Virus record (IMG/VR): IMGVR_UViG_3300008111_000060
DNA: 64,000 nucleotides
Reading direction: 5' to 3' (one strand)
Source: an uncultured virus (IMG/VR IMGVR_UViG_3300008111_000060)
Taxonomy: Duplodnaviria; Heunggongvirae; Uroviricota; Caudoviricetes
Below, in pieces: positions 3,145 to 54,922 of this stretch; the first letter of the stretch is position 1, and every line of letters starts with the position of its first letter. Below the pieces are notes generated by a model. The model searched no databases, was not told the DNA's origin, and worked only from the letters and a program-made list of their open reading frames with translations. Made by a program: the position numbers and the translations under genes.

Positions 3145-3275
3145 TCCCGCAAATCGGAACCAAGCCACCACGAAGACGGGGGTAGGGCCCCCCGGTGAAG
3201 TGTGGCGGGGGCCGAATATAGACGCCCCATCACACTCTCTAGTTCACAAAAATTTCCAGGAAAAATTTTTTTTTT
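3145..3275. other. GC-rich island at the strand switch; candidate packaging or terminus signal
   Basis: G/C runs, a ggccccc/gggggcc inverted repeat and adjacent A/T tracts in an AT-rich genome. Confidence 0.45.
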
Positions 3276-3351
3276 AAACCGCTATGGGATAGGTATTATA
3301 ATTTATTACTTTTATACCCGTGTTATTTATATTTATCTTATTATATATACT

Positions 3352-39640: not shown

Positions 39641-42600
39641 TGGCTAAAGATAATTTTTCACAAAATACATCAAACTCTGAAACAAGAAGGTTTGATAAAT
39701 CATTAGTAGAAGATGTTAATGATTTTCACTTGCCCGAGAACTCTTGGACACAAGCAAGAAATGCTATAAGCAATTCGGTAACAGGTGACTTGGGTAAACT
39801 TGGTAATGAACCAGGAAATAGATTTTGTACAAAAGCGCCTTATCCTATTATAGGAGCTATTCATCTTAATGCTGATAAGTGGGCTATATTTTCTACAGAT
39901 AATACTAATTCTGAAATAGGTATATATGAAGAAAAAGTTTGTTCTTATACTAAGGTAGTAAATGCTTCTTGCTTAAATTTTAATCAGGCTAATCTTATAA
40001 AAGGTGTATCAAGATATACTAGTAATTGTTCTTTTAGAGTTTACTGGGATGATGGTTTAAATCCTTCTAGAGTATTAGATCTTAATGATGTACCTTGGGT
40101 ACAAATTTGTCTTGATGAAAATCAAATAGATGTTAATAATGCTCCTGCTAATTATGATCCTGTTGGATGTATTACTTGTACAGACACAGAAGAATTAGAT
40201 TGTGAAAGAACAAGATTAGCAATGAGAATGATACCACCTTGTTACAATATACAAAAAGGTACAAATGGTGGGACATTAGCTAATGGTATGTACATAGTAA
40301 CCATGGCTTATACTATAGATGGAGAAAGAGTAAGTGATTATTTTCCTTTATCTAATCAACAACCTTTATATAATCATACTAATGTTGCTGGTTCTATTGA
40401 TATTATTATTGGTGATACTGATGATAATTTTGATGAAGTGGAAGTTGTAGTAATCTACATCGTTGCTCAACAAACTGTTGCTAGAAGAGTTGGTATTTAT
40501 AGTACTAAGCAAAAAAGAATATCTATAGATATTATTAATCCTGAATGGCCAGTTGTTCCAATAGAAAATATACCGTTTAGAACTACTATATACAATCAAA
40601 GTGATGCGATGTATAATGTTAATGATTACCTAATAAGAGTTGGTCCTAAATCAAAATTTGATTTTAACTATCAACCTTTAGCTAATCAGATTGTAACTAA
40701 GTGGTCAGCTGCAGAATATCCTGCAGATTACTACAAGAATGGTGGATCTAATACAGGATACATGCGCGATGAAGTGTATGCTTTTTTTATTAGATGGATA
40801 TATGATACTGGAGATAAATCAGCTTCTTATCATATACCGGGCAGACCATCTTTACCAGGAGAAAAAAATCTAGCTGTTACAGATTCTTTATCAGATGAAA
40901 CAGCTGGACCTAATCCTTTTAACTATAAGTGGTTAGTTGAAAATACAGCTTATCCAGATCCTAGTTTTGTTCCATCACAACTACCAGATGGTGGTTGGGA
41001 AGTAGCTGCAGGCTACATGGGATATTGGGAATCTACAGAAGAGTATCCAGATAATAAAGCAGATGTGTGGAATGCGAGTGCTCACTGTTGGTCATCTTTA
41101 AGTCCTAGTCCTCCTTGTCCAGTAGTAAGTGCCCCGTCTATACCTTATTCTGGAACAGCTAATGGTTTATCTGATTATGATCTTTGTGGAGAAAAAGTAA
41201 GACATCACAAGTTTCCCGATAACTATATCAATTTTACAAATCCTGCTTCTAATCACTATGCATCAGGTTCTGCTTATTTTCAAGGCCCTGTTATTAGAAT
41301 AATGGGAGTAAAGTTTGAAAACATATTGCCACCAGTAGATAATAATGGTGTTGCTATTCCAAACATTGTAGGATACGAAATACTAAGAGGAACAAGAACT
41401 GGTAATAGAAGTGTTTTATTCAAAGGTATTATAAACAACATGCGTGTTTATACACTTGAATCAGGTTCTAATAGAACAGGTTTGTTTGCTAATTATCCTT
41501 ACAATGATTTAAGACCAGATCCATTTTTATCTAATACTAGAACAAGTAATGTACCTTGCTTCTTTGGTTTATTTAATGGTGGAGAAAATGGTTACGATCC
41601 ACAAATAGCTTATAGAAAAGATATATTTTCTTTTCATTCACCAGATACAAATTATGATAATCCTTATCTATCAGGTAAAGAGTTAAAAGTATATTCTAAT
41701 ATATATGGTACTACTACCGGTAAGTTTGAATATTCTGAAAAACATCCTAAACATAAGATAATATCAAACAGTGCTCTTATTGTTTCTTTTCTAGTAGGTT
41801 TAGTTTTAACATCAAAAAAATTAAATGGTGATAAAAAAATAACTTATACAACACCTCATACTTCAGGGTTTATTGATGGTGGTGTGGAACCTGTAACTGG
41901 AGGTTTGTATGGAGCATTAAATCCTGCAATATATGCTTGGTATAATGTTGCTGATGCTGCTCAAAGTTTAATGGCTGGTTTAACACAAACAGCAAATACT
42001 GTTTATAACTCAGGTTTAACTAACATAGTACAAAATGTTGGAGGTCTTTCTGGTACAACAACTTTTTTACAAGCTGTAAGATTAGCAAATGTTATTCCTT
42101 CTGTAGCTGGTGCACCTTTTTTAAATGGTGATCCTTTTGTTATTGAATTAGGAGATGGTTTATATGATTCTTTTTCAGCTGTTGGTTTAGTACCACCTTT
42201 CTCAGCAATACAATATTTATATAACTTATCAGAGAATGCTCAGATTGTATTAGATCTTATTAAAGCATTTTTAACACCTAGACAATATGCATTAAAATAT
42301 AATTCTCATTGTTTTTATTCAGCTAGTGCTCCACCTCCATCAGCAGGTAATCGTAGAAAAAGTATTATTAATCAACAATACATAGGACCATCTTATGTAG
42401 ACTTTGGAACATCTTTTAGAATAAACAATCTATATAGGGCTAACTATGTTGTATTACAAACCGATACAAATATTACAAATCCATCTATAGTAGATGACAC
42501 TAGAAAAAGAGTATATGATGTTCCAGCTTTAGCTGAAGGACCAGATAACTTTTTCAATGTACCTAGAGTAAAAGATCCTGTTGCAAAAGAATTTAATACA

Positions 42601-44784
42601 ACATCTTCTTGTTACTATGTTGGTTATAAACAAAGAATAAGAAATCAATATGGTCAAGTAAATACTGTTAAACAAGTACCAGTAACTACATGTTACCAAA
42701 GAAGAAGAAATATATCAAAATCAGATGTTCTTTTTAATGGTGATGTTTATATTGGTAGACACACTGAAAAAAATACTTTTTTCTTTTTCTATGAATGGTT
42801 ATTTGAACAACCAGATTTTTTTGAGTTTAATTATCTAGAACATAGAATGGTAGGTTTTCCAAGATATTGGTTAGATACTACTAGTTATGAGATAACAGAT
42901 TTTACAGGTGGATTGTTTGGATTAATCACAACATTAAATCTTAACTCTGCATCATTAGGAGGAATACTTCCTTCAGGATTATATAATCTTGATGAAAGTA
43001 CTTGCGCTTTTGCATCAGGTTTAGATGAATTAAACTTTGCTGTTAAGTATCAATATTTCTACTTGTTCTCATCTGGCGTAAGAGACTTCTTTGTAGAATC
43101 AGAAATCAATGTTGATTTTAGAGATTATGGTGAATTAGATACCGAGTATTTCTACCCGATTAGAGAGATTAAAGATTTATTTAATACTAGTATTATTAAA
43201 TCAGGAAACTTCTTTAAATATGATAGAAGCTTTACAATGTCAAAAAACTTTATAGCTTATGTATCATGGGGAGATTGTCAAGAGAGATCTTATGATCCAC
43301 AATTATCAGAGACATGTTATGTATATGATCCTAATGAAATAATATATTCTTTACCAGCTAATCAAGAAGCTGATAAAGATTACTGGTTATATTTCTTAGC
43401 AAACAACTATGAGAAATTTTTATCGCGACCTAGTTGTATAAAACCTATTGATAAAAGCGGAGCTGTAATATTTTTTGAAAACGGTTCTCCTCTAATCTTT
43501 AGAGGATTAGATCAATTACAAACTACATCTGGTACAGCTTTAACTATAGGTGACGGTGCATTGTTTTCACAGCCTCGTCAAAATGTAGTAAATGCTGATA
43601 GGCCATACGAATATGGTTCTTGTCAAGATAGATTGAGTGTTATTACTACACCGGTTGGAACATATTGGATATCACAAAGTTTAGGAAAAGTTTTTGCTTT
43701 AGTTGATGGTATCCAGGAACTATCCAATGCTAATATGAAATGGTGGTTTGCTGAATACTTACCTTATAAGTTAATTAAAGATTTTCCAAACTTTGCTTTA
43801 ACAGAAAACCCTTTTATTGGTATAGGTTGTCAATCGATTTATGATAATGAGAACCAAATATTATATTTTACTAAAAAGGATTATAAATTAAGGACTGATT
43901 TACCTGCGAGTACAACAATTACTTATAAGGAGAAGAACATCTTTAATATTGTTGTAGATGGTCAAATATTAGCTACTACTACTTTACAAGATCCACAATA
44001 TTTTGAAGATGCTTCTTGGACAGTTAGTTATGATCCAAAGCTTCAAGCTTTTATATCATATCATGATTGGCATCCAGATCTTCTTCTACCTGGTAAAAAT
44101 ACTTTCATGAGTATTAAAAATATCAATGCTAATCCTAATGTTGAGAATGGTATTTGGATACATAATGAAAGAGTAGATTTATATTGTAACTACTATGGCA
44201 TAGATTATCCTTTTGAGATAGAGTGGAATGTGCATACTGGTCCAATAGTAAACTCTTTAAGAAGTGTTGAGTATATTATGGAAGTATTTATCTATGCAGA
44301 AAATCGCTATGATAGATACCATGTTTTAGATTTCAACTTTGATGAAGCTACTATTTATAATACAGAACAGTGCTCTGGATTACTTAAGTTAAACTTAACA
44401 CCTAAGAATAACTCAGCTAAAATATTACAATATCCTCAAGTAGGAACAAATAATATTCAGATACTTTATTCTAAGGAAGAAAACAAATATCGCTTTAATC
44501 AGTTTTGGGATATTACAGATAGCCGCGGCGAGTTTCCTATTAATTCTCCGTATCCACCTACTACAATGACAGGTACATTTGCTGAAAGATTAATATTTAA
44601 TACACAAGCTAATGGCTATGTAAGAATACTAAATCCTAATAATTTAAATTACAATAAAAATCAATTGCAAAGAAAAAAGTTTAGACATTATACTAACTTA
44701 GTACTTTTGCGTAGATTAGTATGCGGTAATAAAAAAATGATGGTAATGTTAGCTTCAAATAAAAATCTTTATTCTCCTAGATAA
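39640..44784 (+). CDS. Tail stabilisation / muzzle (nozzle) protein, 1714 aa
   Basis: GNEPGN, VYWDDGLNPSR, GYMRDEVYAF, VRHHKFP and WTVSYD...FISYHDW motifs typical of crAss-like tail stabilisation proteins. Confidence 0.8.
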   Translation: MAKDNFSQNTSNSETRRFDKSLVEDVNDFHLPENSWTQARNAISNSVTGDLGKLGNEPGNRFCTKAPYPIIGAIHLNADKWAIFSTDNTNSEIGIYEEKVCSYTKVVNASCLNFNQANLIKGVSRYTSNCSFRVYWDDGLNPSRVLDLNDVPWVQICLDENQIDVNNAPANYDPVGCITCTDTEELDCERTRLAMRMIPPCYNIQKGTNGGTLANGMYIVTMAYTIDGERVSDYFPLSNQQPLYNHTNVAGSIDIIIGDTDDNFDEVEVVVIYIVAQQTVARRVGIYSTKQKRISIDIINPEWPVVPIENIPFRTTIYNQSDAMYNVNDYLIRVGPKSKFDFNYQPLANQIVTKWSAAEYPADYYKNGGSNTGYMRDEVYAFFIRWIYDTGDKSASYHIPGRPSLPGEKNLAVTDSLSDETAGPNPFNYKWLVENTAYPDPSFVPSQLPDGGWEVAAGYMGYWESTEEYPDNKADVWNASAHCWSSLSPSPPCPVVSAPSIPYSGTANGLSDYDLCGEKVRHHKFPDNYINFTNPASNHYASGSAYFQGPVIRIMGVKFENILPPVDNNGVAIPNIVGYEILRGTRTGNRSVLFKGIINNMRVYTLESGSNRTGLFANYPYNDLRPDPFLSNTRTSNVPCFFGLFNGGENGYDPQIAYRKDIFSFHSPDTNYDNPYLSGKELKVYSNIYGTTTGKFEYSEKHPKHKIISNSALIVSFLVGLVLTSKKLNGDKKITYTTPHTSGFIDGGVEPVTGGLYGALNPAIYAWYNVADAAQSLMAGLTQTANTVYNSGLTNIVQNVGGLSGTTTFLQAVRLANVIPSVAGAPFLNGDPFVIELGDGLYDSFSAVGLVPPFSAIQYLYNLSENAQIVLDLIKAFLTPRQYALKYNSHCFYSASAPPPSAGNRRKSIINQQYIGPSYVDFGTSFRINNLYRANYVVLQTDTNITNPSIVDDTRKRVYDVPALAEGPDNFFNVPRVKDPVAKEFNTTSSCYYVGYKQRIRNQYGQVNTVKQVPVTTCYQRRRNISKSDVLFNGDVYIGRHTEKNTFFFFYEWLFEQPDFFEFNYLEHRMVGFPRYWLDTTSYEITDFTGGLFGLITTLNLNSASLGGILPSGLYNLDESTCAFASGLDELNFAVKYQYFYLFSSGVRDFFVESEINVDFRDYGELDTEYFYPIREIKDLFNTSIIKSGNFFKYDRSFTMSKNFIAYVSWGDCQERSYDPQLSETCYVYDPNEIIYSLPANQEADKDYWLYFLANNYEKFLSRPSCIKPIDKSGAVIFFENGSPLIFRGLDQLQTTSGTALTIGDGALFSQPRQNVVNADRPYEYGSCQDRLSVITTPVGTYWISQSLGKVFALVDGIQELSNANMKWWFAEYLPYKLIKDFPNFALTENPFIGIGCQSIYDNENQILYFTKKDYKLRTDLPASTTITYKEKNIFNIVVDGQILATTTLQDPQYFEDASWTVSYDPKLQAFISYHDWHPDLLLPGKNTFMSIKNINANPNVENGIWIHNERVDLYCNYYGIDYPFEIEWNVHTGPIVNSLRSVEYIMEVFIYAENRYDRYHVLDFNFDEATIYNTEQCSGLLKLNLTPKNNSAKILQYPQVGTNNIQILYSKEENKYRFNQFWDITDSRGEFPINSPYPPTTMTGTFAERLIFNTQANGYVRILNPNNLNYNKNQLQRKKFRHYTNLVLLRRLVCGNKKMMVMLASNKNLYSPR

Positions 44785-47700
44785 TGAAAAAGAAAAATAC
44801 AGGCTGGTTAGATAAATATGAGGATGGTGGTAAAACAATAATGCATCATCCTAAGAAAACAGTATTTAATCCTAATACTGGAGAATATACTTTACCAGAA
44901 GTGGTAATCAAACCAAAAAAATATACTGATGCTGAAGCAGATGCTACAAGTAAAAAACCATGGGGTGAAATGGCATATAAAGAAAGAGTTGCTTATTTAG
45001 ATGCTAAAGAAAAAAATAAAAATAAAACTATAACAAAAGCTCAAGCTGAAACATGGGCTAAAGAAGCAGAAGCTAAATCTAGAGAACAAGCTAAAAAAGA
45101 ATATGCTAAAGAATATGTTCAGCAGAGCATGCAAGATTTTTATAAGCATCCTATAGCTATGGCTCCAGGAATGATATTTGGTTCTACAATAGCTCCAGCT
45201 CTTGGTGCAATAGCTTCTTTACCACAAGCTTATGAATCAGGTAAAAATATTGCACAAGGTGATGGTTCTTTTATGGATTATGCTAATCTTGCTCTAGCAG
45301 CTGCTGGTGCTAAAGGAGCTATACCAAAGATTGCAAACCCTGTTAAATCATATGTGCAAGATGTAGCATATGCTAGTAAAGTAGCAGGTAAACCTAAGTT
45401 ACCAACTTATACAAATGCTATAAGATGGCAACCAGATGTATTTCCTAATAGTCTTGTTGAAGCAGGAAAAACACTTTCACCTGAGCAACAAGCTTTAACT
45501 GGTAGTTGGTATAGTTACGCAGATAGACCTGATCAACTAGGGTTTTATATGAGTACAAGACCGGGTTCTGGTAATATAAATACTTTGCGTTTATCAGAAA
45601 GAGAAATTGCTGAGCTAGAAGGAGCAATGCCAGATTATGCAAAGGGTATGTCGGGTAAAGCCGAGAGTGTCCCTACATCCGATAGTTATATGAAAGGAGA
45701 GCTAATAGTTCCTAAAAATATAAGAACCAAGGCAAAACAAATAAGATTTGATGTAAATCCTTCCGAGTATATTCCACAATCTAAAGGTGTTTATCCTGGA
45801 ATGTTTTTTGGCGCAGATGAATATGCGCAATCGCTCACAGGAAGACATGTTCAAGATATTATAAATTCTCAATATCCTAATTTAATGAAAATTCCTAGAA
45901 AGTATTTTCCATTTGAATACGGAGGTTGGTTACAAAAATATGATAGAGGAGGTGATCCTGAGACACCGCCAAAAACTAGTCTTTCACCAGAAGCTTTTGA
46001 ACAGCAATACATAGATAATCTTAAAAGAAGATTAGATCTTGCTAATCTTATAGAAAAAGAAAAAAAAGCAGTTGCTGCTATAAGAGCTAACTTTGTTCCT
46101 ACAGCAAAAAAAATTGATGAAGCAGATGATAAAATACTTAGAGAACAAGGTATACCTTATCAGCATTTTTTGAAAATGAGAGCTGCTAAAAATCCTGAAG
46201 AGTTACGCAAATTGATTAATACAGCTCCTCAAGAATTAAAATATGTATTACCAGATAATGGAAATTTTAATATTGCTCAATGGGATAAAAAAACTAATTC
46301 TTGGAATCCTCAGCAAACTCCAGCTAGAGAATTATATTGTGCAGGTGAAACTTGTACAGTGCTTAGAAAAGCAGGTGCTAAAGATATTCCTATAATTGGA
46401 GGCAATGTTACTTTTATAGGCAAAGTTCAAAAAGGTGAATTACCATTTGCTAAAGTTAATCCTGATGAAGCAGAACCTGGAGATCTAGCCGTTGTACATG
46501 GATTAGCTCCAGCAGTATACACAGATGAAAATTCTCCTATTGTAAACAGAGGTCATCATATGACTTTATTAGCAAAAAAACCTATATTAGATGCTAAAAA
46601 AAATGCTCAAAAAATAGAAGCTTATAATGCAGTTGAAGGAAACAGATTATTTTATGGGTTATCAGAAAGAACAGCTGGCGGAGATGATGATGAACACTAT
46701 ACATTTTATAGATATACAGGAGCTGTACCAAAATATGAAAAAGAGTTAGCGGATATACAAGAATATTTTAAAAACACAAGATTACCAGATATGCAACCAA
46801 TTCAATCAAGATTACCACAAGCACCTGAGCCTGAATTAAAAAGAGAAGGAGGCTGGCTAGATAAGTATGATAATAAATATAAAAGAGGTGGAAGTAAATC
46901 CAAATCTAAATTTACATCAAAGAATATTCAATCTAGTATAAATACATTGTTTGCTAGAAACTATGATTTGTTTGGACCTAGTGGTAAAAAATATTATAAT
47001 CCACTTTCTAAATTTGATGATGGTGGACAACCGGTATTTGATCCTACTACAGGGATGTATACTTTACCAGAAGTAACTATTGAAGCTGAAGCACCTGAGT
47101 GGAGTGATTTATCTCAAGAATATGAAAGAACAAATCCTTTACAAGCTTTTGTAAGAGGAAGAAAAGAAGATGTTATAAGACAATCTCCAAGAGGTTTAAA
47201 TAAACTTTTTGGTGTAAATCCTTCTCAGTTTGCATCTAGTATAGAAAACAATATAGCAAATGAATATGACTATCTTAAGAATACCGCTATCATAGAAGGA
47301 ATAGCTAAGAGTCGTGGAATTGATTTATCAGAAAGAGGAGACTGGGTAGATCAATTATCAAACAAAGAAAAAGAAATATTAGCTAATTCAAAATATGAAA
47401 CTCTTCTTCAACCAAGTTTTTATGCAAAGAGTTTAGCAGGTTTACAAGAACTAGCTGGTTATATGCCGGGTACTTTACCTAATAAATATGCACCATTAAC
47501 TCCAGGTTTAACAAAAAGAGAACAAGAAGAAATACACAATGAAAAGTTTTTAGGAGTTCCTACTGGAGCACTTAATGCTTTTCAATTTATGGATGTCCCT
47601 GGCCAAGCTATTGCTAATGTTCTAAAAAATAGAGGTTTATCTACAGGGTCAGATTACAGAGATATACCTGGTGTATTATCAGGTAAATCTATGGGTAATG

Positions 47701-49580
47701 TAAATCCACTAGATGCTGCGCTTATGAATCCTTTTAATACTGTAGGAGCACCAGAAGCTGTAGTTGGATTAGGTAGAGGTACCGTAGCTTTAGGTAAAGG
47801 TGTATATCAACTTGGTAAAAAAGGTTATGAAGAAGCTCCAAGAATCGGGAGATTTTTAAAACAAGGGTTTAATAAATTTGAAAATCTTGTTGGTCAAGGT
47901 TTTGATAATCTTAGCAGACAAGAGAATGCTATGTATCTAGATGACCTATATAGAAGAGGAATAATAGATAATCCGAATCCTATTGTAGATCCGTGGGATA
48001 CTTATGTTCCATCATATAGCGAGAATTATGATCCTAGCAAGAATTATACTCCACCATATAGCGAGGATTATACTCCACCATATGGCAATGAGCCATATCC
48101 TTGGGATGCAGAACCTTTTGTAACCCCTGCTGATATTGAAGGTGCTATAGAACAACATCTAAGACAAAGAAGAGCTTCAAATGTTGAACCATCTTCAAAT
48201 CAGCTTCCTCCTCCTCCTTCAGAAATAATATTACCAGAAGCAAATCGATTTAGAGAAACTTATAATTCAATATTAGGTAATCTTAGAAATCAATTTAGAA
48301 GATCAGGAGAAATTTTATCTGCAGATGATATTGCTTCTCGTTTTGCTAGAGAAAATAGTGTTAATGATTTGTATTCTTCTTCACCAGCTAGTAGTAGAAA
48401 CAATGAATTATCAGAATCTACTATTAATAGTTTACTTGGATACAATCAACCAGCACAAGCAGCAGTTGAAGTTATAGATCCTATTACTTTAAGAAGACAA
48501 CTTGTAGAAGCAATACCTAATAAAAAAGTAAAAGATATTACAGATAAAGTTTTACAAACAAATAAAAGATCTACAGGTAGTATTTCTTATTACGATGTTT
48601 TACAAAATGATAGAGGTGGTGTTAATCCTGAAATACGAGATTTTGACCAACACTTTATGCCTACAAATCAATTAGATTCTAGAATAGAAGATTTACAAAC
48701 TAGTATAAATGAGTTAGAAAAATTAATGAATGAGTATAATAATCCAATTCTTACTACTAAACAAGAAAATATTCGCGAACAGCAAAAATTTATTATTAAT
48801 AAATTACAACAAGAGTTAGAAGATGCTAAATCTACTAAATGGTTAAGAACAGAAAGAGTTGAAGAATTAAAAGCACAAGGATTAGATCCTGATGATCAAT
48901 TATCTATAGTGACAATTGGAGGTTCTTCTTATTTTGCTCCAAAACAACTTGTAGATAAAAATGGAAAAATACTTGGAACCGTAAATCTTGGTGGTAATAC
49001 TATTAGTTCTACAGGTCTTGCTTATAATCAACATGGTTATGCTTTTGGAAAACAATTTGCAAATGGTGCTAAAAATTATACTAAAGAAGAAGCAAGAGAT
49101 GTTTTAGCTCGTAGAGCTTATGATGAGTTGCTTATGACTCATCCAAGTGCTGCTTCTGATCCAGATAGATTAAAAGGTTTTGAACAAGCTGCTTATGAAA
49201 TAGCTGATGGTAAAATAAAAGAAATAGAATATAATAATAATAATAGTTTTGGTTTAACTTTATATAGAGGTGTTCATCATGGTATAAAAGATACTAGAGG
49301 AAACCTTAGATCTTATAAGCATTTTGCAGATACAGATTTACCAAATAAAATAACCGGATTTTTAGAAAAAGAGAAGAGAGCTAAAAGAGCATGGAATTCT
49401 TGGGATAGACAAGGCTATGTAAAAAATAATCCTATAGCAGGTGAAGATCCTATAGAAACTGGATACTACGAGTTTATTAAAAAGTTTGGTGGATCTTTTG
49501 ATGCTGTAAGATATCTTAAAGAGCACTCAAGAAAAATGAATAAAGGTGGTTCAACTCAAGGATGGTTAGATAACTATTAA
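44784..49580 (+). CDS. Modular cargo protein with an NlpC/P60-like hydrolase and other effector-like domains separated by GWLDKY/xxGG motifs
   Basis: YCAG...EPGDL...GHHM triad-like pattern; four GWL(D/Q)(K/N)Y motifs; two VF.P.TG.YTLPEV.I motifs. Confidence 0.75.
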   Translation: MKKKNTGWLDKYEDGGKTIMHHPKKTVFNPNTGEYTLPEVVIKPKKYTDAEADATSKKPWGEMAYKERVAYLDAKEKNKNKTITKAQAETWAKEAEAKSREQAKKEYAKEYVQQSMQDFYKHPIAMAPGMIFGSTIAPALGAIASLPQAYESGKNIAQGDGSFMDYANLALAAAGAKGAIPKIANPVKSYVQDVAYASKVAGKPKLPTYTNAIRWQPDVFPNSLVEAGKTLSPEQQALTGSWYSYADRPDQLGFYMSTRPGSGNINTLRLSEREIAELEGAMPDYAKGMSGKAESVPTSDSYMKGELIVPKNIRTKAKQIRFDVNPSEYIPQSKGVYPGMFFGADEYAQSLTGRHVQDIINSQYPNLMKIPRKYFPFEYGGWLQKYDRGGDPETPPKTSLSPEAFEQQYIDNLKRRLDLANLIEKEKKAVAAIRANFVPTAKKIDEADDKILREQGIPYQHFLKMRAAKNPEELRKLINTAPQELKYVLPDNGNFNIAQWDKKTNSWNPQQTPARELYCAGETCTVLRKAGAKDIPIIGGNVTFIGKVQKGELPFAKVNPDEAEPGDLAVVHGLAPAVYTDENSPIVNRGHHMTLLAKKPILDAKKNAQKIEAYNAVEGNRLFYGLSERTAGGDDDEHYTFYRYTGAVPKYEKELADIQEYFKNTRLPDMQPIQSRLPQAPEPELKREGGWLDKYDNKYKRGGSKSKSKFTSKNIQSSINTLFARNYDLFGPSGKKYYNPLSKFDDGGQPVFDPTTGMYTLPEVTIEAEAPEWSDLSQEYERTNPLQAFVRGRKEDVIRQSPRGLNKLFGVNPSQFASSIENNIANEYDYLKNTAIIEGIAKSRGIDLSERGDWVDQLSNKEKEILANSKYETLLQPSFYAKSLAGLQELAGYMPGTLPNKYAPLTPGLTKREQEEIHNEKFLGVPTGALNAFQFMDVPGQAIANVLKNRGLSTGSDYRDIPGVLSGKSMGNVNPLDAALMNPFNTVGAPEAVVGLGRGTVALGKGVYQLGKKGYEEAPRIGRFLKQGFNKFENLVGQGFDNLSRQENAMYLDDLYRRGIIDNPNPIVDPWDTYVPSYSENYDPSKNYTPPYSEDYTPPYGNEPYPWDAEPFVTPADIEGAIEQHLRQRRASNVEPSSNQLPPPPSEIILPEANRFRETYNSILGNLRNQFRRSGEILSADDIASRFARENSVNDLYSSSPASSRNNELSESTINSLLGYNQPAQAAVEVIDPITLRRQLVEAIPNKKVKDITDKVLQTNKRSTGSISYYDVLQNDRGGVNPEIRDFDQHFMPTNQLDSRIEDLQTSINELEKLMNEYNNPILTTKQENIREQQKFIINKLQQELEDAKSTKWLRTERVEELKAQGLDPDDQLSIVTIGGSSYFAPKQLVDKNGKILGTVNLGGNTISSTGLAYNQHGYAFGKQFANGAKNYTKEEARDVLARRAYDELLMTHPSAASDPDRLKGFEQAAYEIADGKIKEIEYNNNNSFGLTLYRGVHHGIKDTRGNLRSYKHFADTDLPNKITGFLEKEKRAKRAWNSWDRQGYVKNNPIAGEDPIETGYYEFIKKFGGSFDAVRYLKEHSRKMNKGGSTQGWLDNY

Positions 49581-49638: not shown

Positions 49639-52113
49639 ATGACAGCAGCAGAAAGATTAGCTTATGTAGGTTTACCAGATACTCCTGAAGGCAGAGAAAC
49701 ATTCTATGATATGTTTGATGATGAATCAAAGTGGGATGATTTTTATTCTCAAGAAATGGCTAGAGGTGGAACAACCTCTACATACATGTTTCCTCAAGCT
49801 TTTTACCAGGATGGCGGAGCTACTGATGGCATAGCTTATCCTCAACAACCTACTTCACAGTATATGTTTGAAGGAGCTTCTTGGTATCCTAGTTATAAAG
49901 AACATGGTGGTATTGCTTATCCACAGCAACCTACTGCTGATGTATTTTTTAGTGCAAATCCTTGGCAACCCCACTATGAAGAAGGTGGTCAGTATGGAGG
50001 ATCTGCTTCACCACTAGGCTATGGTCAGATGCCACCTGTTATGGATTTTGGAGGTATGTCTAAAGGAGATAAGAAAACATTTCTTAAAAGCTTTGTAGAC
50101 AACTACATGAAATATGCTTATGGAGGTAATGCTTCTCAGATGGAAGCTGATACAGATCCTATTAACTATCCTGAAAAGATTAGAAATAACTTTGTTAGTA
50201 AGTTACAAAAAAATGCTACTATATCAAGAGCAGAAGATGAAGGTAAGGCTATCTTAAATAATCTAATGCAAAACAACCAAGTTGAGCCAATGGCTTTTAA
50301 CTATGGTGGAGGTATGGATTATGATTGGGATTCTATGAGAAATCCTAATGCTCAAGCTCAAGCTGATATGTATAATAACATGGCAGATGAATATGAAAAT
50401 CAAGCTATGAATTCTACACAACAAGCTGGTCAAAATTTATTTGATATTGGCAAACAGTTTATGAATAATAGAAATGCTATCAATGCTCAGACAGAAGCTG
50501 CAAAAAACTTTGCTGCTTCCACAATGACAGGAGCTGAAGCAGCTCGTGGTGGTAGCTTTAATGTACCTAGATTTGATCCAGGTGGAGGATTTAGTAAAAA
50601 TATAGGACCTGATCCAGGTAACTTATTTAAAAAATCAACACCTATATTTTTCCCTAATGCGGGTGCTCCTGCAGCTCCAGCAGCAAAGGTTGATCCATAT
50701 GCTGGTTTAAATCAAGCTCAAATACTAAGAAAACAATTAGAAGAAAAATATCCTACTAGTAATACTGGTCAACAAAATCAGTCATATGATTTAGCACAAC
50801 TACTAGGTCAATACTTTGGAACAAATCCTAATCAATCAGGAAGATATGTTTTTGCTCCAACCTTTGGTGATCCTTTTGATTATAAAGGTAGAAACCAATA
50901 TGGTAAGTTTAGATTAAGAAGCTATGGTCCAGGAATATTTAATCCAAATGCTGGTAATGTTTATGGAACTGCTTCACAAAATACAGGTAATTTTAATTTT
51001 GGTAATATGTCTAAGATGGATCCTAATCAATTAGCTGCTGCTCAACAGTATCTTAAAGATAAAGGAATTAGTCTTGAATATTCACAACAAAATAGAAAGT
51101 TTTTTAATAAACTTTTAGGACCAAAAAGTTTTAGTTTAAAATATAATATAGGTAATTCAAGTACTGGAACTACTCAACCTGGAGCTGCACCAACTACTCC
51201 TGTTGCCCCAGCTGAAGCAAAAAAACCAGGATTCTTTGATAGGATGAAAGAGAAGAATCAAGCTAGAAAAGCTACTAAAGAAGCTGCTAGATATGAAGAG
51301 TTTAAAAAGAATAATCCAGTTTATCCTAATGAAAAAACACCAACAGGTGCACCGGTTATATCACCATTAGATCAATCTAATGCGTTGCCAAATGCTAATA
51401 GTAATTCAAATTGGTCAATGATGGAAAAACCTGGATTAGTATTAGATCCTAATTCACCTGGCTCAAGTGGACCTGTTATGTCTCCAATGCAAAGAGCTAA
51501 TGCGTTACCAGCAGGTACACAAAGCGTTCCTTACACACCTAGACCTACAATAAATCCTAATGATTCTACACCAACGGGTCCTGTAATGGAACCTCTTGAT
51601 CAATCTGGTGCTGTATTTAATTATGGTGGTTATTACTTACCAAAAGCTGTAGGTGGATTTGATAATAGTAATTTAATTACTAAAGATGTAGGATTTCAGT
51701 ATGATCAAAATCTTAATCCTTTTACAGGTGTAGGTCAAAAAGTTATGAAATCTATGCCTAGTATAATGCAAGCAACAACAAATTTAGTTAATTATCATAG
51801 AATAGGAAAAGGATTAGAAGATCAAGCTTTTGCTAAAACATCTGCTGATGCTAATTACTTTGCTGATAATCGTGTTAATAAAGGATCCAAAATGATTGAT
51901 CCTTATAATGCGGCAAGTTTAGATGATCCATATCAAACAGGTTTCCAATTACATGATCAAGGAAGAGCTTTCCAAAATAGCAACATAAAGGATAGCAGAT
52001 ATGGTGGAAACTTATATCCTGATGGCGGCCAAGTAGGAGATATAATGTATTTGTCTGATGAAGATGTAGCAAGATTTATGGCAGAAGGTGGAACAATAGA
52101 ATTTTTAGATTAA
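49639..52113 (+). CDS. Low-complexity cargo protein rich in xxGG motifs
   Basis: Gly/Asn/Gln/Met-rich with internal repeats; position among the ejected-protein genes. Confidence 0.75.
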   Translation: MTAAERLAYVGLPDTPEGRETFYDMFDDESKWDDFYSQEMARGGTTSTYMFPQAFYQDGGATDGIAYPQQPTSQYMFEGASWYPSYKEHGGIAYPQQPTADVFFSANPWQPHYEEGGQYGGSASPLGYGQMPPVMDFGGMSKGDKKTFLKSFVDNYMKYAYGGNASQMEADTDPINYPEKIRNNFVSKLQKNATISRAEDEGKAILNNLMQNNQVEPMAFNYGGGMDYDWDSMRNPNAQAQADMYNNMADEYENQAMNSTQQAGQNLFDIGKQFMNNRNAINAQTEAAKNFAASTMTGAEAARGGSFNVPRFDPGGGFSKNIGPDPGNLFKKSTPIFFPNAGAPAAPAAKVDPYAGLNQAQILRKQLEEKYPTSNTGQQNQSYDLAQLLGQYFGTNPNQSGRYVFAPTFGDPFDYKGRNQYGKFRLRSYGPGIFNPNAGNVYGTASQNTGNFNFGNMSKMDPNQLAAAQQYLKDKGISLEYSQQNRKFFNKLLGPKSFSLKYNIGNSSTGTTQPGAAPTTPVAPAEAKKPGFFDRMKEKNQARKATKEAARYEEFKKNNPVYPNEKTPTGAPVISPLDQSNALPNANSNSNWSMMEKPGLVLDPNSPGSSGPVMSPMQRANALPAGTQSVPYTPRPTINPNDSTPTGPVMEPLDQSGAVFNYGGYYLPKAVGGFDNSNLITKDVGFQYDQNLNPFTGVGQKVMKSMPSIMQATTNLVNYHRIGKGLEDQAFAKTSADANYFADNRVNKGSKMIDPYNAASLDDPYQTGFQLHDQGRAFQNSNIKDSRYGGNLYPDGGQVGDIMYLSDEDVARFMAEGGTIEFLD

Positions 52114-52114
52114 T

Positions 52115-54922
52115 ATGCTAAGAAAAGTAAAAATAACAGGACTTCCAAAAGCAGCTAAAGGTGGACCTAGAGTTAACCCTGCTATGGGCTTTAATGCTAA
52201 TACATTAAATTGGCCAGCTATGCCGGGTCAGATGTCCGATAAACCAATAATGGTTAAAAAGAGTATTGGTCCAACAAAAGGTAAACCTGATCTAGAAGCT
52301 GAGAAAGGTGAGACTATTGTTGCTGATTATATGAATGGGGGTATTCCTCAGCAATATATTATTGGTGGCAAAAGACACTCACAAGGTGGTACTAATTTAT
52401 CTGTGCCTAAAAATTCTCCTGCTTTTATTTTTTCAGATACACCAGCTCTAAAAATAAAAGATGAAGAAGTTCTTGCTATGTTTAACAAGAAGCTTAAGAA
52501 TGGTGGATTAACTCCGGCAGAAATTGCTAAGCAATATAATATCAATGATTACTATGCAATGCTTCTTGATCCAGATTCAGATGATCTTCAAAGAAAAACT
52601 GCAGAAGCTATGATTGCTAAATACAATCTTAAGCTAGGTGGTTTAGCTTTATATCAAGAATCTATGAAAGGATTTAAAGAGGGTGGGATACCACCGATAT
52701 CTCAATCCTATGTAGAGATGACTGGTATAGATCCTCAATCGATTATGCCGCCGGAACCAACACAAGCTCAACAAGAGAATCCTTATGGTGACATGGCTAA
52801 ATATGGAAAGAGTATTAATAAGTTTATTCCACAAGCTCGTAGAGGAAACAGAGGAGATAATCCTCTTCTACAAGCTTTGAATAATCTTATGCCAGGGAGA
52901 ACCGCGGATCCATTTCCTATGTTCGGAAATAGAAGACAACCTGTAGGATACAGATTTAATCCTCAAGCAAATATAATTGAAGTTGTAAACAGTAATGGAG
53001 AAGTAATTGGATACGGTACCAGATCAAATCAAAAATATCGTGATCCTTATAGTGGATGGGACGGAACAGGATCTATGCCATTTATTACATCTTCTAATGC
53101 TCCACAAGAATGGAAAGATAGAAATGGATTTGGTGACAACTCTTCTACAAGTACTCAAACTACAACAACAACTACTAAAAAGAAAAAGGTTAAGAAACAA
53201 GTTGTACCTGCAGATGCTCAAATAATTAAACGTAGTGATTATGCTACAGATGCAGAATACGAAGCTGCTAGAGATAAAGCTTTTGCAGATGCTGGTGGTA
53301 AGAAAACCATTTATACTCAAGATAAAAATGGTAGATACTATACAGTAGAAGAAAAAGATTATGCTGGTTCAAATGCTGATGAAAACATTGAGATGATTAA
53401 AAGCGCTTTTAAAAACCCTAAAGTAGCTGAAGAATTTAAAGCAAATATTTTAAAAGGTTTTGATCAAAAAAATAAAGATGGTAAATCAGTTGTTAGGCAT
53501 GCTGGTCTTAAAAAAGCAGATGTTGAAAAGATGACTGCTGATGAATTAGCTGATCAGTTTATAGAATTTAATACTAGAAATATCAAAGGTATAGAACAGC
53601 TTAGTAAAGAGTTAGGCATTAAACCTGGTGATATGAGTCAAGGAAGTGTATTAAAATTTTTTAATAATAAAAGTGGTAAAAAGGTTGAAAATTGTGCTTT
53701 TGATGCTCAAGGTAATCGTAACAGTAAAGAAGATCAACAGCGTTGTGCAAGTTTAAAATATAAAAGCTTAGAAGATCTTTATGAAAAAACAGGTACTCCT
53801 ATGCCTAAAGATGATAAGTCTAAAGCTTTACAACAACTTACATATATTGGTTATAATAACCTTTTAAAGGCCAGAGATAACAAAGAGATTAAAGATGATG
53901 AAATCAATAAGAGTTTATCACCTTTTATTATTGGACAAAAAGGTGTAGGCGATGAAAAGATTGCTGGTAAATATGCTGGTTCTATATCGGATGCTGATGC
54001 TGTTTATACTAATACCACGGCTGGAGAATATGCAGCTATTACCGGTAAAAAAAGAAATGAGAAAGAGTTAGGTGAAACAGAAACAGAAGAGGATGAAACA
54101 ACTACTGATGTTAATAATGTAAACACAGATGCTAACATGCCTTATGGTTTTGGTTACAAGCCAAAGAAAGAATATTTTAGACAGGATGAAAATAGAATGG
54201 CTTTTGATTTAGGTAATCTATTAACAGCTAGAAAGTATATGCCTTGGCAAGCAAGTTTAAATCCATCTCTTATTAAAAATGAATATTATAGTCCAGAAAG
54301 AGAATTAGCAGCTAATGCAGAGCAGAGTAATATTATGGCTAATGTATTAGCTGGATTTACAGGTAGAAAGAAATTCTCATCTGCTGCTTCTCAGTTATCT
54401 GGGGCAGGAGCTAAGAATGCTGCGGATATCTTAGGTAGATACAATAACCTTAATGTTGGTGTAGCAAATAGATCTGCTGAGCAAAATGCAGATATATTAA
54501 ACAGATTTAATATGTTAAATGCTGATTTAGCTACCAAGCTTTTTGATAAGAATACTATTGGTAATCAGCAATATAGAAATGCTAAAATAGCATATGGAGA
54601 TAACTTTGTTACATCTTTAAATAATGCTATAACCAATGCTTCTAATGCTTACAATTTAAATCAAATGAATCCTCAGTTTAATATCAGTCCTCGCAGAGGA
54701 GGTGACATGTTTTTTACAGGTGTACCAAAACCTTGGAATAGAACTGGATATACAACTGAAGATTTGACTACAGCATTTAATACTGCTAAAGGTAAACTAC
54801 CTGGTGTTAAAGATGAAGTTATTTGGAACATTGTTAAGAACCAAAAAGGAATTGGAACAGAAGCACCAGATATGAGTTTTCTTTCACAAGCAAATAATGT
54901 AATAAGCAATTCAGGAGTATAA
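52115..54922 (+). CDS. crAss-like cargo protein
   Basis: EAEKGE...GGKRHSQGG motif; Asn/Ala-rich helical C-terminus. Confidence 0.75.
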   Translation: MLRKVKITGLPKAAKGGPRVNPAMGFNANTLNWPAMPGQMSDKPIMVKKSIGPTKGKPDLEAEKGETIVADYMNGGIPQQYIIGGKRHSQGGTNLSVPKNSPAFIFSDTPALKIKDEEVLAMFNKKLKNGGLTPAEIAKQYNINDYYAMLLDPDSDDLQRKTAEAMIAKYNLKLGGLALYQESMKGFKEGGIPPISQSYVEMTGIDPQSIMPPEPTQAQQENPYGDMAKYGKSINKFIPQARRGNRGDNPLLQALNNLMPGRTADPFPMFGNRRQPVGYRFNPQANIIEVVNSNGEVIGYGTRSNQKYRDPYSGWDGTGSMPFITSSNAPQEWKDRNGFGDNSSTSTQTTTTTTKKKKVKKQVVPADAQIIKRSDYATDAEYEAARDKAFADAGGKKTIYTQDKNGRYYTVEEKDYAGSNADENIEMIKSAFKNPKVAEEFKANILKGFDQKNKDGKSVVRHAGLKKADVEKMTADELADQFIEFNTRNIKGIEQLSKELGIKPGDMSQGSVLKFFNNKSGKKVENCAFDAQGNRNSKEDQQRCASLKYKSLEDLYEKTGTPMPKDDKSKALQQLTYIGYNNLLKARDNKEIKDDEINKSLSPFIIGQKGVGDEKIAGKYAGSISDADAVYTNTTAGEYAAITGKKRNEKELGETETEEDETTTDVNNVNTDANMPYGFGYKPKKEYFRQDENRMAFDLGNLLTARKYMPWQASLNPSLIKNEYYSPERELAANAEQSNIMANVLAGFTGRKKFSSAASQLSGAGAKNAADILGRYNNLNVGVANRSAEQNADILNRFNMLNADLATKLFDKNTIGNQQYRNAKIAYGDNFVTSLNNAITNASNAYNLNQMNPQFNISPRRGGDMFFTGVPKPWNRTGYTTEDLTTAFNTAKGKLPGVKDEVIWNIVKNQKGIGTEAPDMSFLSQANNVISNSGV

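What the first reader, a model, noticed from the sequence alone, without database searches (positions are those of the whole stretch)
44784..49580. Cargo polyprotein: effector-like domains framed by repeated GWLDKY/xxGG linkers
Seen: the protein is punctuated by GWLDKYEDGG (44802), FEYGGWLQKYDRGG (45912), KREGGWLDKYDNKYKRGG (46839), KFDDGG (47010), KKFGG (49479) and MNKGG..GWLDNY (49536-49577). A second motif, VF(N/D)PxTGxYTLPEVxI, opens modules 1 and 3 (44862, 47034). Unrelated globular-looking domains lie between the linkers. Established: crAss-like virions package large cargo proteins that are ejected on infection, and GG-type sites are cleavage signals for adenovirus and ASFV proteases. 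Inference: this is a cassette-built virion payload in which the linkers are cleavage or packaging tags, so enzymes can be swapped in and delivered to the host.
Basis: partly seen in the sequence, partly recalled or inferred. Interest (0 to 1): 0.85.

Follow-up and report, generated by a model that had tools for sequence, protein, structure and literature searches.

The report
Mosaic crAss-phage cargo protein with tags
This gene encodes a large protein that a crAss-like phage most likely carries inside its particle and injects into its host; it is built from interchangeable modules that are joined and capped by one short repeated peptide, whose job (address label, hinge or cutting site) is still unknown.

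Summary
ORF 44784-49580 (1598 aa) carries GWL(D/Q)(K/N)Y four times, at its start, its end and two internal junctions, and nowhere else in the window. It lies directly after the muzzle gene of a crAss-like phage, in the slot of crAss001 cargo protein 1 (gp45). The protein is a true mosaic. Modules A, B, m, C and E recur independently, in 14 different orders, in 157 relatives. Two phages that are 95-98% identical in the flanking genes differ by whole-module deletion, replacement and insertion, and 5 of 6 breakpoints lie at the linkers. AlphaFold gives low confidence for the linkers and higher confidence for the modules between them. Only module B has an identified fold, an NlpC/P60-CHAP cell-wall peptidase. 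C and E are helical with no match, and A is an unassigned alpha/beta domain. A new point is that the linker equals the C-terminal tail. In 58 of 158 family proteins the last 15 residues recur internally (controls 13.5 and 7.6), in at least three tag classes. This favours address or docking tags carried by each cassette over protease sites, but cleavage was neither shown nor excluded. The family is known in kind (polyvalent/ejection proteins); the tag system appears undescribed.

The parts
39640..44784 (+). Muzzle protein gene (1714 aa). Its stop overlaps the start codon of the cargo ORF.
   Evidence: Pfam crAss_MUZ PF25731, E 2.7e-34. PHROG 37948. 38-40% identical over its full length to the ORF before the cargo gene in 5 distant loci.
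44784..49580 (+). Mosaic cargo-protein-1-type ORF, 1598 aa (P0001)
44802..44831 (+). Tag copy 1 plus hinge: GWLDKY-ED-GG (aa 7-16), at the N-terminus
   Evidence: DNA identity to L002 (95%) ends at 44821 and identity to L004 (98%) ends at 44800.
44862..44909 (+). VFNPNTGEYTLPEVVI motif, copy 1 (aa 27-42)
   Evidence: pLDDT below 50.
45159..45215 (+). Gly/Ala-rich hydrophobic segment (aa 126-144), a possible membrane-inserting helix
   Evidence: Kyte-Doolittle mean 1.42 over 19 aa. This compares with the predicted TM of crAss001 gp45, aa 140-158, at 1.73 (Bayfield 2023 passages).
45351..45917 (+). Module A (aa 190-378): conserved alpha/beta domain of unknown function, ending in IPRKYFPF
   Evidence: Found in 26 of 157 relatives. 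Invariant Y209, W215, Q235, W242, R259, GMSG 288-291, E306 and N325 in 24 sequences. pLDDT decile means are 74-89 over aa 190-290 and 300-330, and lower (51-59) at aa 290-300 and 330-350.
45918..45953 (+). Tag copy 2 plus hinge: YGGWLQKYDRGG (aa 379-390)
   Evidence: Homology to L002 and L004 resumes at 45916 and 45921. There is a 91% identity island between diverged flanks. pLDDT below 50.
45975..46778 (+). Module B (aa 398-665): helical arm plus an NlpC/P60-CHAP papain-fold peptidase core, with invariant C519, C524, D567, H591 and H592
46845..46892 (+). Tag copy 3 plus hinge: EGGWLDKYDNKYKRGG (aa 688-703)
   Evidence: The 444-nt extra cassette of L002 is inserted here. pLDDT below 50.
46893..47027 (+). 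Mini-module m (aa 704-748): SKSKSKFTSKNIQSSINTLFARNYDLFG...KFDDGG
   Evidence: Found in 16 of 157 relatives, near either end of the protein.
47034..47081 (+). VFDPTTGMYTLPEVTI motif, copy 2 (aa 751-766). Its second half is the conserved start of module C.
   Evidence: family consensus EVxxxAxAxxW. Low-confidence beta-hairpin.
47082..47843 (+). Module C (aa 767-1020): all-helical, the most widespread module
   Evidence: Found in 105 of 157 relatives. pLDDT mostly 70-88. No fold match. No relation to crAss001 gp45 or gp46 by hhalign.
47874..48473 (+). Region D (aa 1031-1230): P/Y/N-rich with low predicted order; contains a 42-nt tandem duplication at 47988-48071
   Evidence: pLDDT mostly below 50. 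Repeat D5. Alignable only in the two close relatives.
48474..49370 (+). Module E (aa 1231-1529): helices plus a small sheet, with many invariant polar residues (LYRGVHHGIKDTRG)
49479..49577 (+). C-terminal tail: KKFGG...MNKGGSTQ-GWLDNY* (tag copy 4, the last residues of the protein)
   Evidence: 18 of the 19 family proteins with this tag end in it.
49639..52113 (+). Second cargo ORF (824 aa, Q/N/G/Y-rich). It has 10 [FYM]xxGG sites and ends in a different tag class (MYLSDEDVARFMAEGGTIEFLD*, nt 52045-52110).
   Evidence: A similar acidic-helix-GG-x-[VILQ]-[EQ]-[YF] tail ends the second ORF after the muzzle in 8 of the 9 loci listed; it is absent in L015.
52115..54922 (+). Third cargo ORF (935 aa) with a conserved N-terminal 220 aa
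   Evidence: 42-43% identical over aa 1-220 to the third post-muzzle ORF in 5 loci. No Pfam hit.

Best explanation
The ORF is the cargo (ejection) protein encoded next to the muzzle gene of an uncultured crAss-like phage. It is a string of independently folding cassettes on flexible Gly-Gly hinges.

Each cassette is a module followed by a short peptide tag, in this lineage GG-WL(D/N)xY-xx-GG. The same tag ends the whole protein.

My reading is that the tag is an address or docking peptide. Every cargo unit needs it to be taken into the particle, held there, or released in order. The idea is comparable to a cargo-loading peptide. Internal 'linkers' are then the retained C-terminal tags of cassettes that were fused or inserted in frame. 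That would explain why recombination adds, removes and swaps whole module-plus-tag units.

After ejection, the hydrophobic N-region would insert into a membrane, module B would cut peptidoglycan, and the other modules would act on the envelope or the cell.

Shown here: the mosaic, the breakpoints at tags, the identity of terminal and internal tags, the low predicted order of the linkers, and the fold of B.

Inferred: virion packaging of this particular protein, the docking function of the tag, and the roles of A, C and E.
For: Context. TerL, portal, Crass_capsid, ring 2, ring 1 and muzzle lie upstream. The start codon overlaps the muzzle stop, as in 7 distinct distant loci. This is the slot of crAss001 gp45, which is a virion cargo protein by mass spectrometry and cryo-EM (Bayfield 2023 passages). 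Relatives sharing module B or A carry crAss_CARG1 (P0149 at 97.7 bits, P0051 at 50.4 bits).

Mosaic. The search found 367 representative proteins at E<=1e-3. In the 157 retrieved, C occurs in 105, B in 33, A in 26, m in 16 and E in 9, in 14 orders and at relative positions 0.10-0.94. Rings and muzzle are colinear in 5 loci, while the cargo ORF shares only module C.

Swapping at tags.
- Against L002 (95.2% identical upstream), identity stops at 44821. Bases 44822-45915 are absent from L002, and homology resumes at 45916.
- B is a 75.6% allele.
- L002 has a 444-nt extra cassette inside tag 3.
- Against L004 (98.3% upstream), 44801-45920 is replaced by an unrelated 1088 nt.
- All three cassettes (window N+A, the P0002 N-module, the P0003 insert) end in their own tag: GGWLQKY, GGWLDKY, GGSLNEY.

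Tag equals terminus.
- The WLxxY tag occurs in 19 of 158 proteins, as 18 C-terminal, 5 N-terminal and 34 internal copies.
- A 25-aa tag, ELTxEEIxxYxxGGYxVEExD, occurs in 69 proteins, as 44 C-terminal and 56 internal copies.
- In an unbiased test, a 6-mer of the last 15 aa recurs internally in 58 of 158 proteins. The figure is 13.5 for random internal segments and 7.6 for shuffled proteins.
- Single-module proteins that start with M also end in tags (P0031, P0111). P0101 has NPYLK at both ends.
- GG flanks the tag on both sides. G sits directly upstream at 47 of 57 copies, and GG lies within 8 aa downstream at 30 of 39.

Position-specific tails. Tails of the first, second and third post-muzzle ORFs are conserved across phages whose muzzles are only 38-40% identical.

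Linkers. pLDDT is below 50 at all tags.
Against: - No receptor for the tag was identified and no binding was tested.
- No proteomic or expression data exist for this phage or any relative. None is in the 50,697 deposited phage genomes.
- Low pLDDT is not proof of disorder, and the alignments were shallow.
- One of six breakpoints (the right edge of the B allele, about 46742) lies roughly 105 nt upstream of tag 3, inside the last helix of B.
- Enrichment of GG near projected module ends across the family is modest: 126 of 345 against 96.8 expected.
- The protein lacks the one cargo-docking domain that is structurally documented, CARG1.
- 29 of 158 relatives have an hhHExxH motif and 3 hit a putative metallopeptidase family. 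Processing of some family members is therefore plausible, and tags could serve both purposes.
Confidence: 0.5

Rival explanations
1. True polyprotein. The tags, or the aromatic-x-x-GG sites next to them, are recognition sites of a protease. This could be a virion-packaged metallopeptidase, the papain-fold module B itself, or a host enzyme. It would cut the chain into separate modules during maturation or after injection.
For: - GG sites lie in low-confidence linkers between folded modules.
- F, Y and M are 4.4x, 4.2x and 3.0x enriched three residues before GG across the family.
- Such sites number 19 in the three cargo ORFs (3357 aa) against 5 in 18 other ORFs (12447 aa).
- Relatives carry zincin-like motifs (29 of 158) and DUF6782 (3 proteins).
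- Iyer et al. 2017 propose autoprocessing of polyvalent proteins by an embedded metallopeptidase (passages).
- The natural C-terminus (...WLDxY plus 0-2 residues) looks like the product of a cut just after the tag.
- In crAss001 gp45 both cryo-EM-resolved pieces are bracketed by aromatic-GG sites.
Against: - P0001 has no HExxH. No protease family was found in 43 window ORFs of 100 aa or more.
- The only HExxH in the window (ORF 58046-63658, aa 1218) has no family support.
- All structural neighbours of B are cell-wall hydrolases, and B is present in only 33 of 157 relatives.
- Tags at the extreme N- and C-termini, and on single-module proteins, have nothing to release.
- The commonest tag class is a 25-residue unit, long for a cleavage site.
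- The Bayfield 2023 main text has 0 occurrences of words beginning 'cleav' or 'proteoly' and models gp45 as one chain.
Confidence: 0.2
2. The linkers have no function of their own beyond being flexible hinges. They are conserved scars of gene fusion and preferred sites where in-frame recombination is tolerated, possibly helped by the 21-nt microhomology.
For: - Breakpoints lie at the 21-nt repeats.
- The L002 deletion looks like recombination between tag copies 1 and 2.
- The linkers have low predicted order.
Against: - The four DNA copies differ by synonymous changes while the peptide is kept.
- Linker 2 is a 91% identity island between flanks of about 50% identity.
- The same 5-residue core is conserved in 57 copies across 19 proteins that otherwise share little.
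- Tag classes are conserved by gene position across phages with 38-40% identical muzzles.
- A hinge needs only Gly/Ser, not W-L-D-K-Y.
Confidence: 0.15
3. The tags are short linear motifs read by a host protein after ejection. They would work like the Tol/Ton boxes in the disordered translocation domains of colicins (recalled, not tested). Repeated copies along an unfolded chain would act as ratchet points that pull the cargo through the envelope.
For: - The tags are Trp/Tyr-containing cores flanked by Gly on flexible segments.
- Cargo is thought to pass the tail partly unfolded (Bayfield 2023 passages).
- Copies are spaced 56-1627 residues apart along the chains.
Against: - There is no host, no candidate receptor and no test.
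- This does not by itself explain why different cargo genes of one phage carry different, position-specific tails.
Confidence: 0.1

Closest known systems
Cargo protein 1 (gp45) of Bacteroides phage crAss001 (PDB 7qog chain M; Pfam crAss_CARG1 PF25725)
   Same: - It is the gene directly after the muzzle gene.
- It has a basic N-terminus and a Gly-rich hydrophobic segment at about aa 130-160.
- It is punctuated by aromatic-GG sites, including FGGWLNTQGG at the start of the portal-bound piece 425-552.
- A relative, P0149, combines module B with CARG1.
   Different: - There is no CARG1 domain and no sequence match to gp45.
- It is twice as long.
- It carries modules A, B, C and E, which none of 50,697 deposited phage genomes matches.
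- It repeats one defined tag at its junctions and both ends.
Polyvalent proteins of phages and conjugative elements (Iyer, Burroughs, Anantharaman, Aravind 2017, PMC5512222; passages seen)
   Same: - Many unrelated domains sit in one polypeptide, encoded among virion genes and thought to be injected with the DNA.
- The relatives' repertoire overlaps: lysozyme, SLT, NlpC/P60, ART-PolyVal (P0057, 49.6 bits) and zincin-like peptidase.
   Different: - P0001 itself has no metallopeptidase, ART-PolyVal or other family defined in that paper.
- That paper's main text has 0 occurrences of words beginning 'linker'. A conserved junction and terminal tag is not part of the concept.
Capsid-targeting and cargo-loading peptides: the T4 internal-protein N-terminal targeting sequence and encapsulin C-terminal loading peptides (recalled, no call)
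   Same: A short terminal peptide on a flexible linker is shared by unrelated cargo proteins of one particle. In those systems, fusing it to other proteins is enough to load them.
   Different: - Binding to any shell, portal or scaffold protein is untested here.
- The tags also occur internally and at both ends.
- There is no sequence similarity.
GG-X polyprotein processing by adenovirus protease and ASFV pS273R
   Same: A hydrophobic residue lies a few positions before Gly-Gly, in linkers between mature products.
   Different: - No such cysteine protease was detected in the window.
- The aromatic residue is one position further from GG than in the recalled adenoviral consensus.
- The motifs also sit at the chain termini.
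Cell-wall-degrading domains of ejected or tail-tip phage proteins, e.g. the CHAP domain of the phi812 hub protein and the NlpC/P60 domain in the diffocin baseplate
   Different: - No Pfam NlpC/P60 or CHAP hit at sequence level.
- A long N-terminal helical arm (aa 402-493) precedes the core.

Membership tests
crAss-like cargo protein 1 (gp45 / crAss_CARG1) | Encoded immediately downstream of the muzzle gene in the structural block | tested here: met
   The muzzle gene (PF25731) ends at 44784, which is the start of the ORF. crAss001 has the same order, gp44 then gp45, and so do 7 distinct distant loci.
crAss-like cargo protein 1 (gp45 / crAss_CARG1) | CARG1 portal-binding domain | tested here: not met
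   No PF25725 hit for the whole protein at E<=0.01, or for five segments at E<=1. No gp45 chain was found by phmmer against PDB sequences. The domain is present in relatives P0149 and P0051.
crAss-like cargo protein 1 (gp45 / crAss_CARG1) | Present in virions and ejected | not testable with these tools
   No cultured relative is known. No whole genome is held for the window.
Polyvalent proteins (Iyer et al. 2017) | Two or more unrelated, independently occurring domains in one polypeptide of a phage late region | tested here: met
   Five modules each recur independently in 9 to 105 of 157 relatives. The gene lies in a structural-gene context.
Polyvalent proteins (Iyer et al. 2017) | Embedded zincin-like metallopeptidase for processing (frequent in the family, not universal) | tested here: not met
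   P0001 has no HExxH and no Pfam peptidase hit. Relatives do: 29 of 158 have hhHExxH, and DUF6782 is hit in 3.
NlpC/P60-CHAP papain-fold peptidases (module B) | Papain-like alpha+beta core | tested here: met
NlpC/P60-CHAP papain-fold peptidases (module B) | Catalytic Cys followed by His, both conserved | tested here: met
   C519 and H591/H592 are invariant in 33 aligned sequences. Whether they superpose on the catalytic dyad was not checked residue by residue.
NlpC/P60-CHAP papain-fold peptidases (module B) | Sequence-profile membership (Pfam PF00877 / PF05257) | tested here: not met
   No hit at E<=1. A profile of 33 sequences finds no PDB chain.
ADP-ribosyltransferase fold (module A) | ART fold with an R/H - S/Y - E triad | tested here: inconclusive
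   Language-model neighbours are ART families at 0.77-0.82, below the tool's 0.9 bar. R214, T239/S241 and E306 lie in predicted strands. There is no Pfam hit.
Viral GG-X polyprotein processing | A cognate protease encoded by the virus | tested here: inconclusive
   None was found in 43 ORFs of 100 aa or more by Pfam and PHROGs. The window is not the whole genome: the longest contig with this protein is 72,669 bases.
Viral GG-X polyprotein processing | Mature products beginning or ending at the sites | not testable with these tools
   This needs virion terminomics.

The most novel reading that the evidence does not exclude
The short tails form a peptide address code for crAss-like virions. Each cargo gene after the muzzle carries its own tag class: WLxxY or the 25-aa ELTxEEI..GGYxVEE unit on the first, an acidic-helix-GG-x-[VILQ]-[EQ]-[YF] tail on the second, and GG..Y..YPF on the third. 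These tags would dock the cargo to defined sites and set the order of ejection. Any module that acquires a tag by in-frame recombination would then be packaged and injected. That would make the first cargo gene an open slot through which the phage samples new injected enzymes, and a natural handle for loading foreign proteins into these particles.
Probability: 0.3. Interest if true: 0.85.

Novelty: new variant of a known kind. Interest (0 to 1): 0.68.

Why it matters
Crassvirales are among the most abundant phages known. Their particles carry megadaltons of protein cargo, and how that cargo is selected, stored and released is unknown (Bayfield 2023 passages).

This locus shows three things. 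The first cargo gene is a hypervariable cassette array. Whole modules move between near-identical phages at one conserved peptide. The same peptide, or in other lineages other short tags, caps the proteins.

If the tags are loading or ordering signals, cargo selection becomes directly testable by tag deletion, tag swapping and tag-reporter fusions. If they are cleavage sites, the reading of crAss001 gp45 as one chain threaded through the portal would need re-examination, because its two resolved pieces are also bracketed by aromatic-GG sites.

The analysis also defines four widespread modules (A, C, m, E) with no family assignment.

Tried and rejected
- **Whole-protein searches.** Pfam and PHROGs gave no hit. 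PDB sequences gave only a chance match. Deposited phage genomes gave no match.
- **Profiles of modules A, B, C and E against PDB sequences.** Nothing below E 0.07. A 0.5 E-value match of the E profile to a RelQ-type pyrophosphokinase was inspected. It was rejected because the family's conserved motifs (recalled) are not matched.
- **Multi-module alignments A1 and A8.** These placed A-type hits onto module B and were discarded. A6 and A9 were checked per module before folding.
- **ESM Atlas.** For module C, one unnamed cluster at 0.77.
- **hhalign.** Module C against crAss001 gp45 and gp46 gave probability below 1%.
- **HExxH at aa 1218 of ORF 58046-63658.** No family support. One chance occurrence in about 16,000 residues is not unlikely by my estimate.
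- **Loci searches.** The search for P0031 found only a contig end. The search for P0101 found nothing. Genome contigs held no relative.
- **A 45-aa tail of the commonest tag class against deposited phages.** No match.
- **Whole genome.** None is held for the window.
- **The search of earlier findings.** Returned nothing.
- **Literature.** Searches found no paper on these tags. Motif strings cannot be searched by meaning, and the supplements of Bayfield 2023 and Iyer 2017 were not opened.


Full report
**1. The observation**

ORF 44784-49580 (+) encodes 1598 residues. Its ATG overlaps the stop of the preceding 1714-aa ORF.

A relaxed pattern for the core, GW[LIV][DQNE][KNRQ][YF], matches four times in all six frames of the window, all in this ORF. 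From composition 1.3e-4 matches are expected. That P value is nominal, since the pattern was defined after seeing the data.

The four copies form a 21-nt repeat family of 86-90% identity that differs by synonymous changes. Selection therefore acts on the peptide.

**2. Context**

The window is the structural block of a crAss-like phage:
- large terminase at 16968
- portal at 19174
- Crass_capsid at 23377
- ring 2 at 37917
- ring 1 at 38588
- muzzle at 39640-44784

The ORF thus occupies the slot of crAss001 gp45 (cargo protein 1), which follows the muzzle gene gp44. By mass spectrometry and cryo-EM, gp45 is a virion protein seen both on the portal and in the tail barrel (Bayfield et al. 2023, PMC10172136; passages read).

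P0001 has no CARG1 domain and no sequence match to gp45. It does share a Gly-rich hydrophobic segment at a similar position. Relatives that share its module B (P0149) or A (P0051) do carry CARG1. P0149 matches PDB gp45 over that domain.

No deposited phage genome matches P0001.

**3. Mosaic architecture**

An exhaustive search with aa 1-1199 found 367 representative proteins at E<=1e-3. Word-based searches added close relatives and C-terminal homologues.

Mapping seven segments of P0001 onto the 157 retrieved relatives gives these counts:

| Module | Residues | Relatives with it (of 157) |
|---|---|---|
| C | 751-1030 | 105 |
| B | 393-688 | 33 |
| A | 161-392 | 26 |
| m | 689-750 | 16 |
| E | 1251-1598 | 9 |

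The modules occur in 14 different orders and at relative positions from 0.10 to 0.94, in proteins of 373-2617 aa.

In five distant loci the ring and muzzle genes align end to end (52-59% and 38-40% identity). The ORF after the muzzle shares only module C with P0001. In the 7 distinct complete examples among the loci listed, that ORF starts on the muzzle stop and is 1045-2789 aa long.

**4. Swapping at the linkers**

Two contigs carry near-identical phages.

Against L002 (P0003):
- DNA identity is 95.2% from 38588 to 44821, which is the end of tag copy 1.
- Bases 44822-45915 (N region plus module A) have no counterpart in L002.
- Homology resumes at 45916, the start of tag copy 2, at 75.6% across module B.
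- L002 then has 444 extra bases inserted within tag 3.
- Identity returns to 90.7% afterwards.

Against L004 (P0002):
- Identity is 98.3% up to 44800.
- Bases 44801-45920 are replaced by an unrelated 1088 nt.
- Homology resumes at 45921.

L004 and L002 share the same B allele at 94.6%.

A sliding window shows a 91% island at linker 2 between flanks of about 50% identity. It also shows a jump from 51-78% to 98-100% at about 46742, roughly 105 nt before tag 3. So five of six breakpoints lie at the tags and one lies inside the last helix of B.

Each of the three exchanged cassettes ends in its own tag: GGWLQKY, GGWLDKY, GGSLNEY.

**5. Folds**

AlphaFold2 on aa 1-750 (18-row alignment, mean pLDDT 62.8) gives:
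- pLDDT below 50 at 1-59, 118-144, 375-399 and 670-750
- decile means of 74-89 for aa 190-290 and 300-330 of module A, lower between and after
- decile means of 74-95 for aa 520-660 of module B, with a helical arm before it

AlphaFold2 on aa 740-1598 (24 rows, mean 57.7) gives:
- a helical module C at mostly 70-88
- low confidence over aa 986-1230
- a partly confident module E

Module B matches NlpC/P60 and CHAP cell-wall peptidases. Z runs from 10.8 to 8.4 for 29 chains, with nothing else above them. Foldseek and the second look give the same picture. C519 and H591/H592 are invariant in 33 sequences.

Module A could not be searched on its own. Its language-model neighbours are ADP-ribosyltransferase families at 0.77-0.82, which the tool rates as a lead only. 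No sequence or structural support was obtained.

Pfam scans covered all 157 relatives and found SLT, two lysozyme families, glucosaminidase, NlpC/P60, CHAP, VanY, YkuD, LysM, PG_binding_1, ART-PolyVal (P0057, 49.6 bits), a putative metallopeptidase (DUF6782) and CARG1. Thresholds differed between calls, from 1e-4 to 1e-2. The slot therefore does carry swappable enzymes, mostly cell-wall enzymes.

**6. The tags: what is new**

The WLxxY core occurs in 19 of 158 family proteins, as 18 C-terminal, 5 N-terminal and 34 internal copies.
- G sits directly upstream at 47 of 57 copies.
- GG lies within 8 residues downstream at 30 of 39 internal and N-terminal copies.
- At C-termini only 0-2 residues follow the Tyr.

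Other lineages use other tags in the same way.
- A 25-residue unit, ELTxEEIxxYxxGGYxVEExD, occurs in 69 proteins, with 44 C-terminal and 56 internal copies.
- A KLNKFI tail occurs in 15 proteins, all C-terminal.

In an unbiased test, a 6-mer from the last 15 residues recurs elsewhere in the same protein (at most 1 mismatch) in 58 of 158 proteins. The figure is 13.5 for random internal segments and 7.6 for shuffled sequences.

Single-module proteins that begin with Met also end in tags. One, P0101, has the same pentapeptide at both ends.

In the window itself the next ORF (49639-52113) ends in a tail of the 25-residue type. A similar tail ends the second post-muzzle ORF in 8 of the 9 loci listed; it is absent in L015. 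A third, aromatic tail ends most third ORFs.

Across the family, F, Y and M are 3.0-4.4x enriched three residues before GG. In the window such sites number 19 in the three cargo ORFs against 5 in 18 other ORFs.

crAss001 gp45 shows the same habit. Its two cryo-EM-resolved pieces, 214-245 and 425-552, are bracketed by YGG (208-210), FGGWL (426-430, the very start of the portal-bound piece) and YGG (561-563) (residue ranges from Bayfield 2023).

**7. Interpretation**

The cassette reading is well supported. I put about 0.85 on 'mosaic cargo/ejection protein whose modules are exchanged at conserved tags'.

On tag function, four observations argue for a role of the peptide itself rather than a role only as a scissile site:
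- internal linkers are identical to natural C-termini
- tags occur at chain ends and on single-module proteins
- the commonest class is long
- tails are position-specific and conserved across distant phages

I favour an address or docking signal that each cassette brings along. Internal copies would be retained termini of fused cassettes.

Cleavage remains possible (0.2). Relatives contain zincin-like motifs (29 of 158). Iyer et al. 2017 (PMC5512222; passages) propose autoprocessing for polyvalent proteins. However, no protease family was detected in 43 window ORFs, and P0001 has no HExxH.

The other two rivals are inert hinge or recombination scars (0.15) and host-read motifs (0.1). Nothing here tests binding, packaging or processing directly.

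**8. Novelty**

Injected multidomain phage proteins and crAss cargo proteins are known. I found no description of a conserved tag that both joins modules and caps cargo proteins.
- Literature searches found none.
- The main text of Iyer 2017 has 0 occurrences of words beginning 'linker'.
- The main text of Bayfield 2023 has 0 occurrences of words beginning 'cleav' or 'proteoly'.
- The 2023 Crassvirales review does not mention it in the passages seen.

Supplements of these papers were not opened and could bear on gp45 processing.

Noticed in passing
window 49639-52113: The second post-muzzle ORF (824 aa) is Q/N/G/Y-rich, with no Pfam, PHROG or BLAST relatives in the distant loci. It has 10 [FYM]xxGG sites and ends in a 22-residue tail of the ELTxEEI..GGYxVEE class. 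In this phage two adjacent cargo genes therefore carry two different tag classes.
   Followed up: partly
window 52115-54922: The N-terminal 220 aa of the third post-muzzle ORF are 42-43% identical in 5 distant loci. By eye they resemble the CARG1 portal-binding domain (GG..H..GG...FxFSD), but there is no Pfam hit. This ORF may be the portal-bound cargo of this clade.
   Followed up: partly
window 58046-63658, aa 1218: This is the only HExxH among 41 window ORFs (VILHELIHEIT). It lies in the largest ORF, which sits in the block where crAss001 encodes its RNA-polymerase-associated cargo proteins. No peptidase family supports it, and it could be chance.
   Followed up: partly
L001 4729-7257 (crAss001 gp45): Both cryo-EM-resolved pieces of gp45 are bracketed by aromatic-GG sites. 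The portal-bound piece begins exactly at AFGGWLNTQGG, a sequence close to the tag studied here.
   Followed up: partly
relatives such as P0054, P0029, P0124 (aa ~33-88): Partial 'SET domain' Pfam hits (profile positions ~51-104 of 105) fall on a conserved N-terminal motif, ITM..YP..G..M.PG..Y.FPG, shared by many family proteins including P0002. It is probably a small beta module and not a methyltransferase.
   Followed up: no
P0101 (415 aa): A single-module protein (module A) with the same pentapeptide at both ends: MNPYLKKYSPGG... and ...GGSVNPYLK*. This is a further tag class that behaves like the WLxxY tag.
   Followed up: no
window 47988-48071: A 42-nt tandem duplication (76% identity) encodes DPWDTYVPSYSENY / DPSKNYTPPYSEDY in the low-confidence P/Y/N-rich region D.
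   Followed up: no
window 3202-4230: Probable endolysin with PG_binding_1 (E 2e-15) and Amidase_2 (E 3e-8). It is separate from the virion-associated peptidase module B.
   Followed up: no
P0057 (2377 aa), aa 1352-1502: A family member with a clear ART-PolyVal domain (49.6 bits, cut-off 31.2), plus YkuD and module C. It links this cargo family to the ADP-ribosyltransferases of polyvalent proteins.
   Followed up: no
P0068 C-terminus: The protein ends in ...CLLYTSPSPRDRS. From memory this looks like a translated sequencing-adaptor remnant, so this database entry is probably truncated by an assembly artefact.
   Followed up: no
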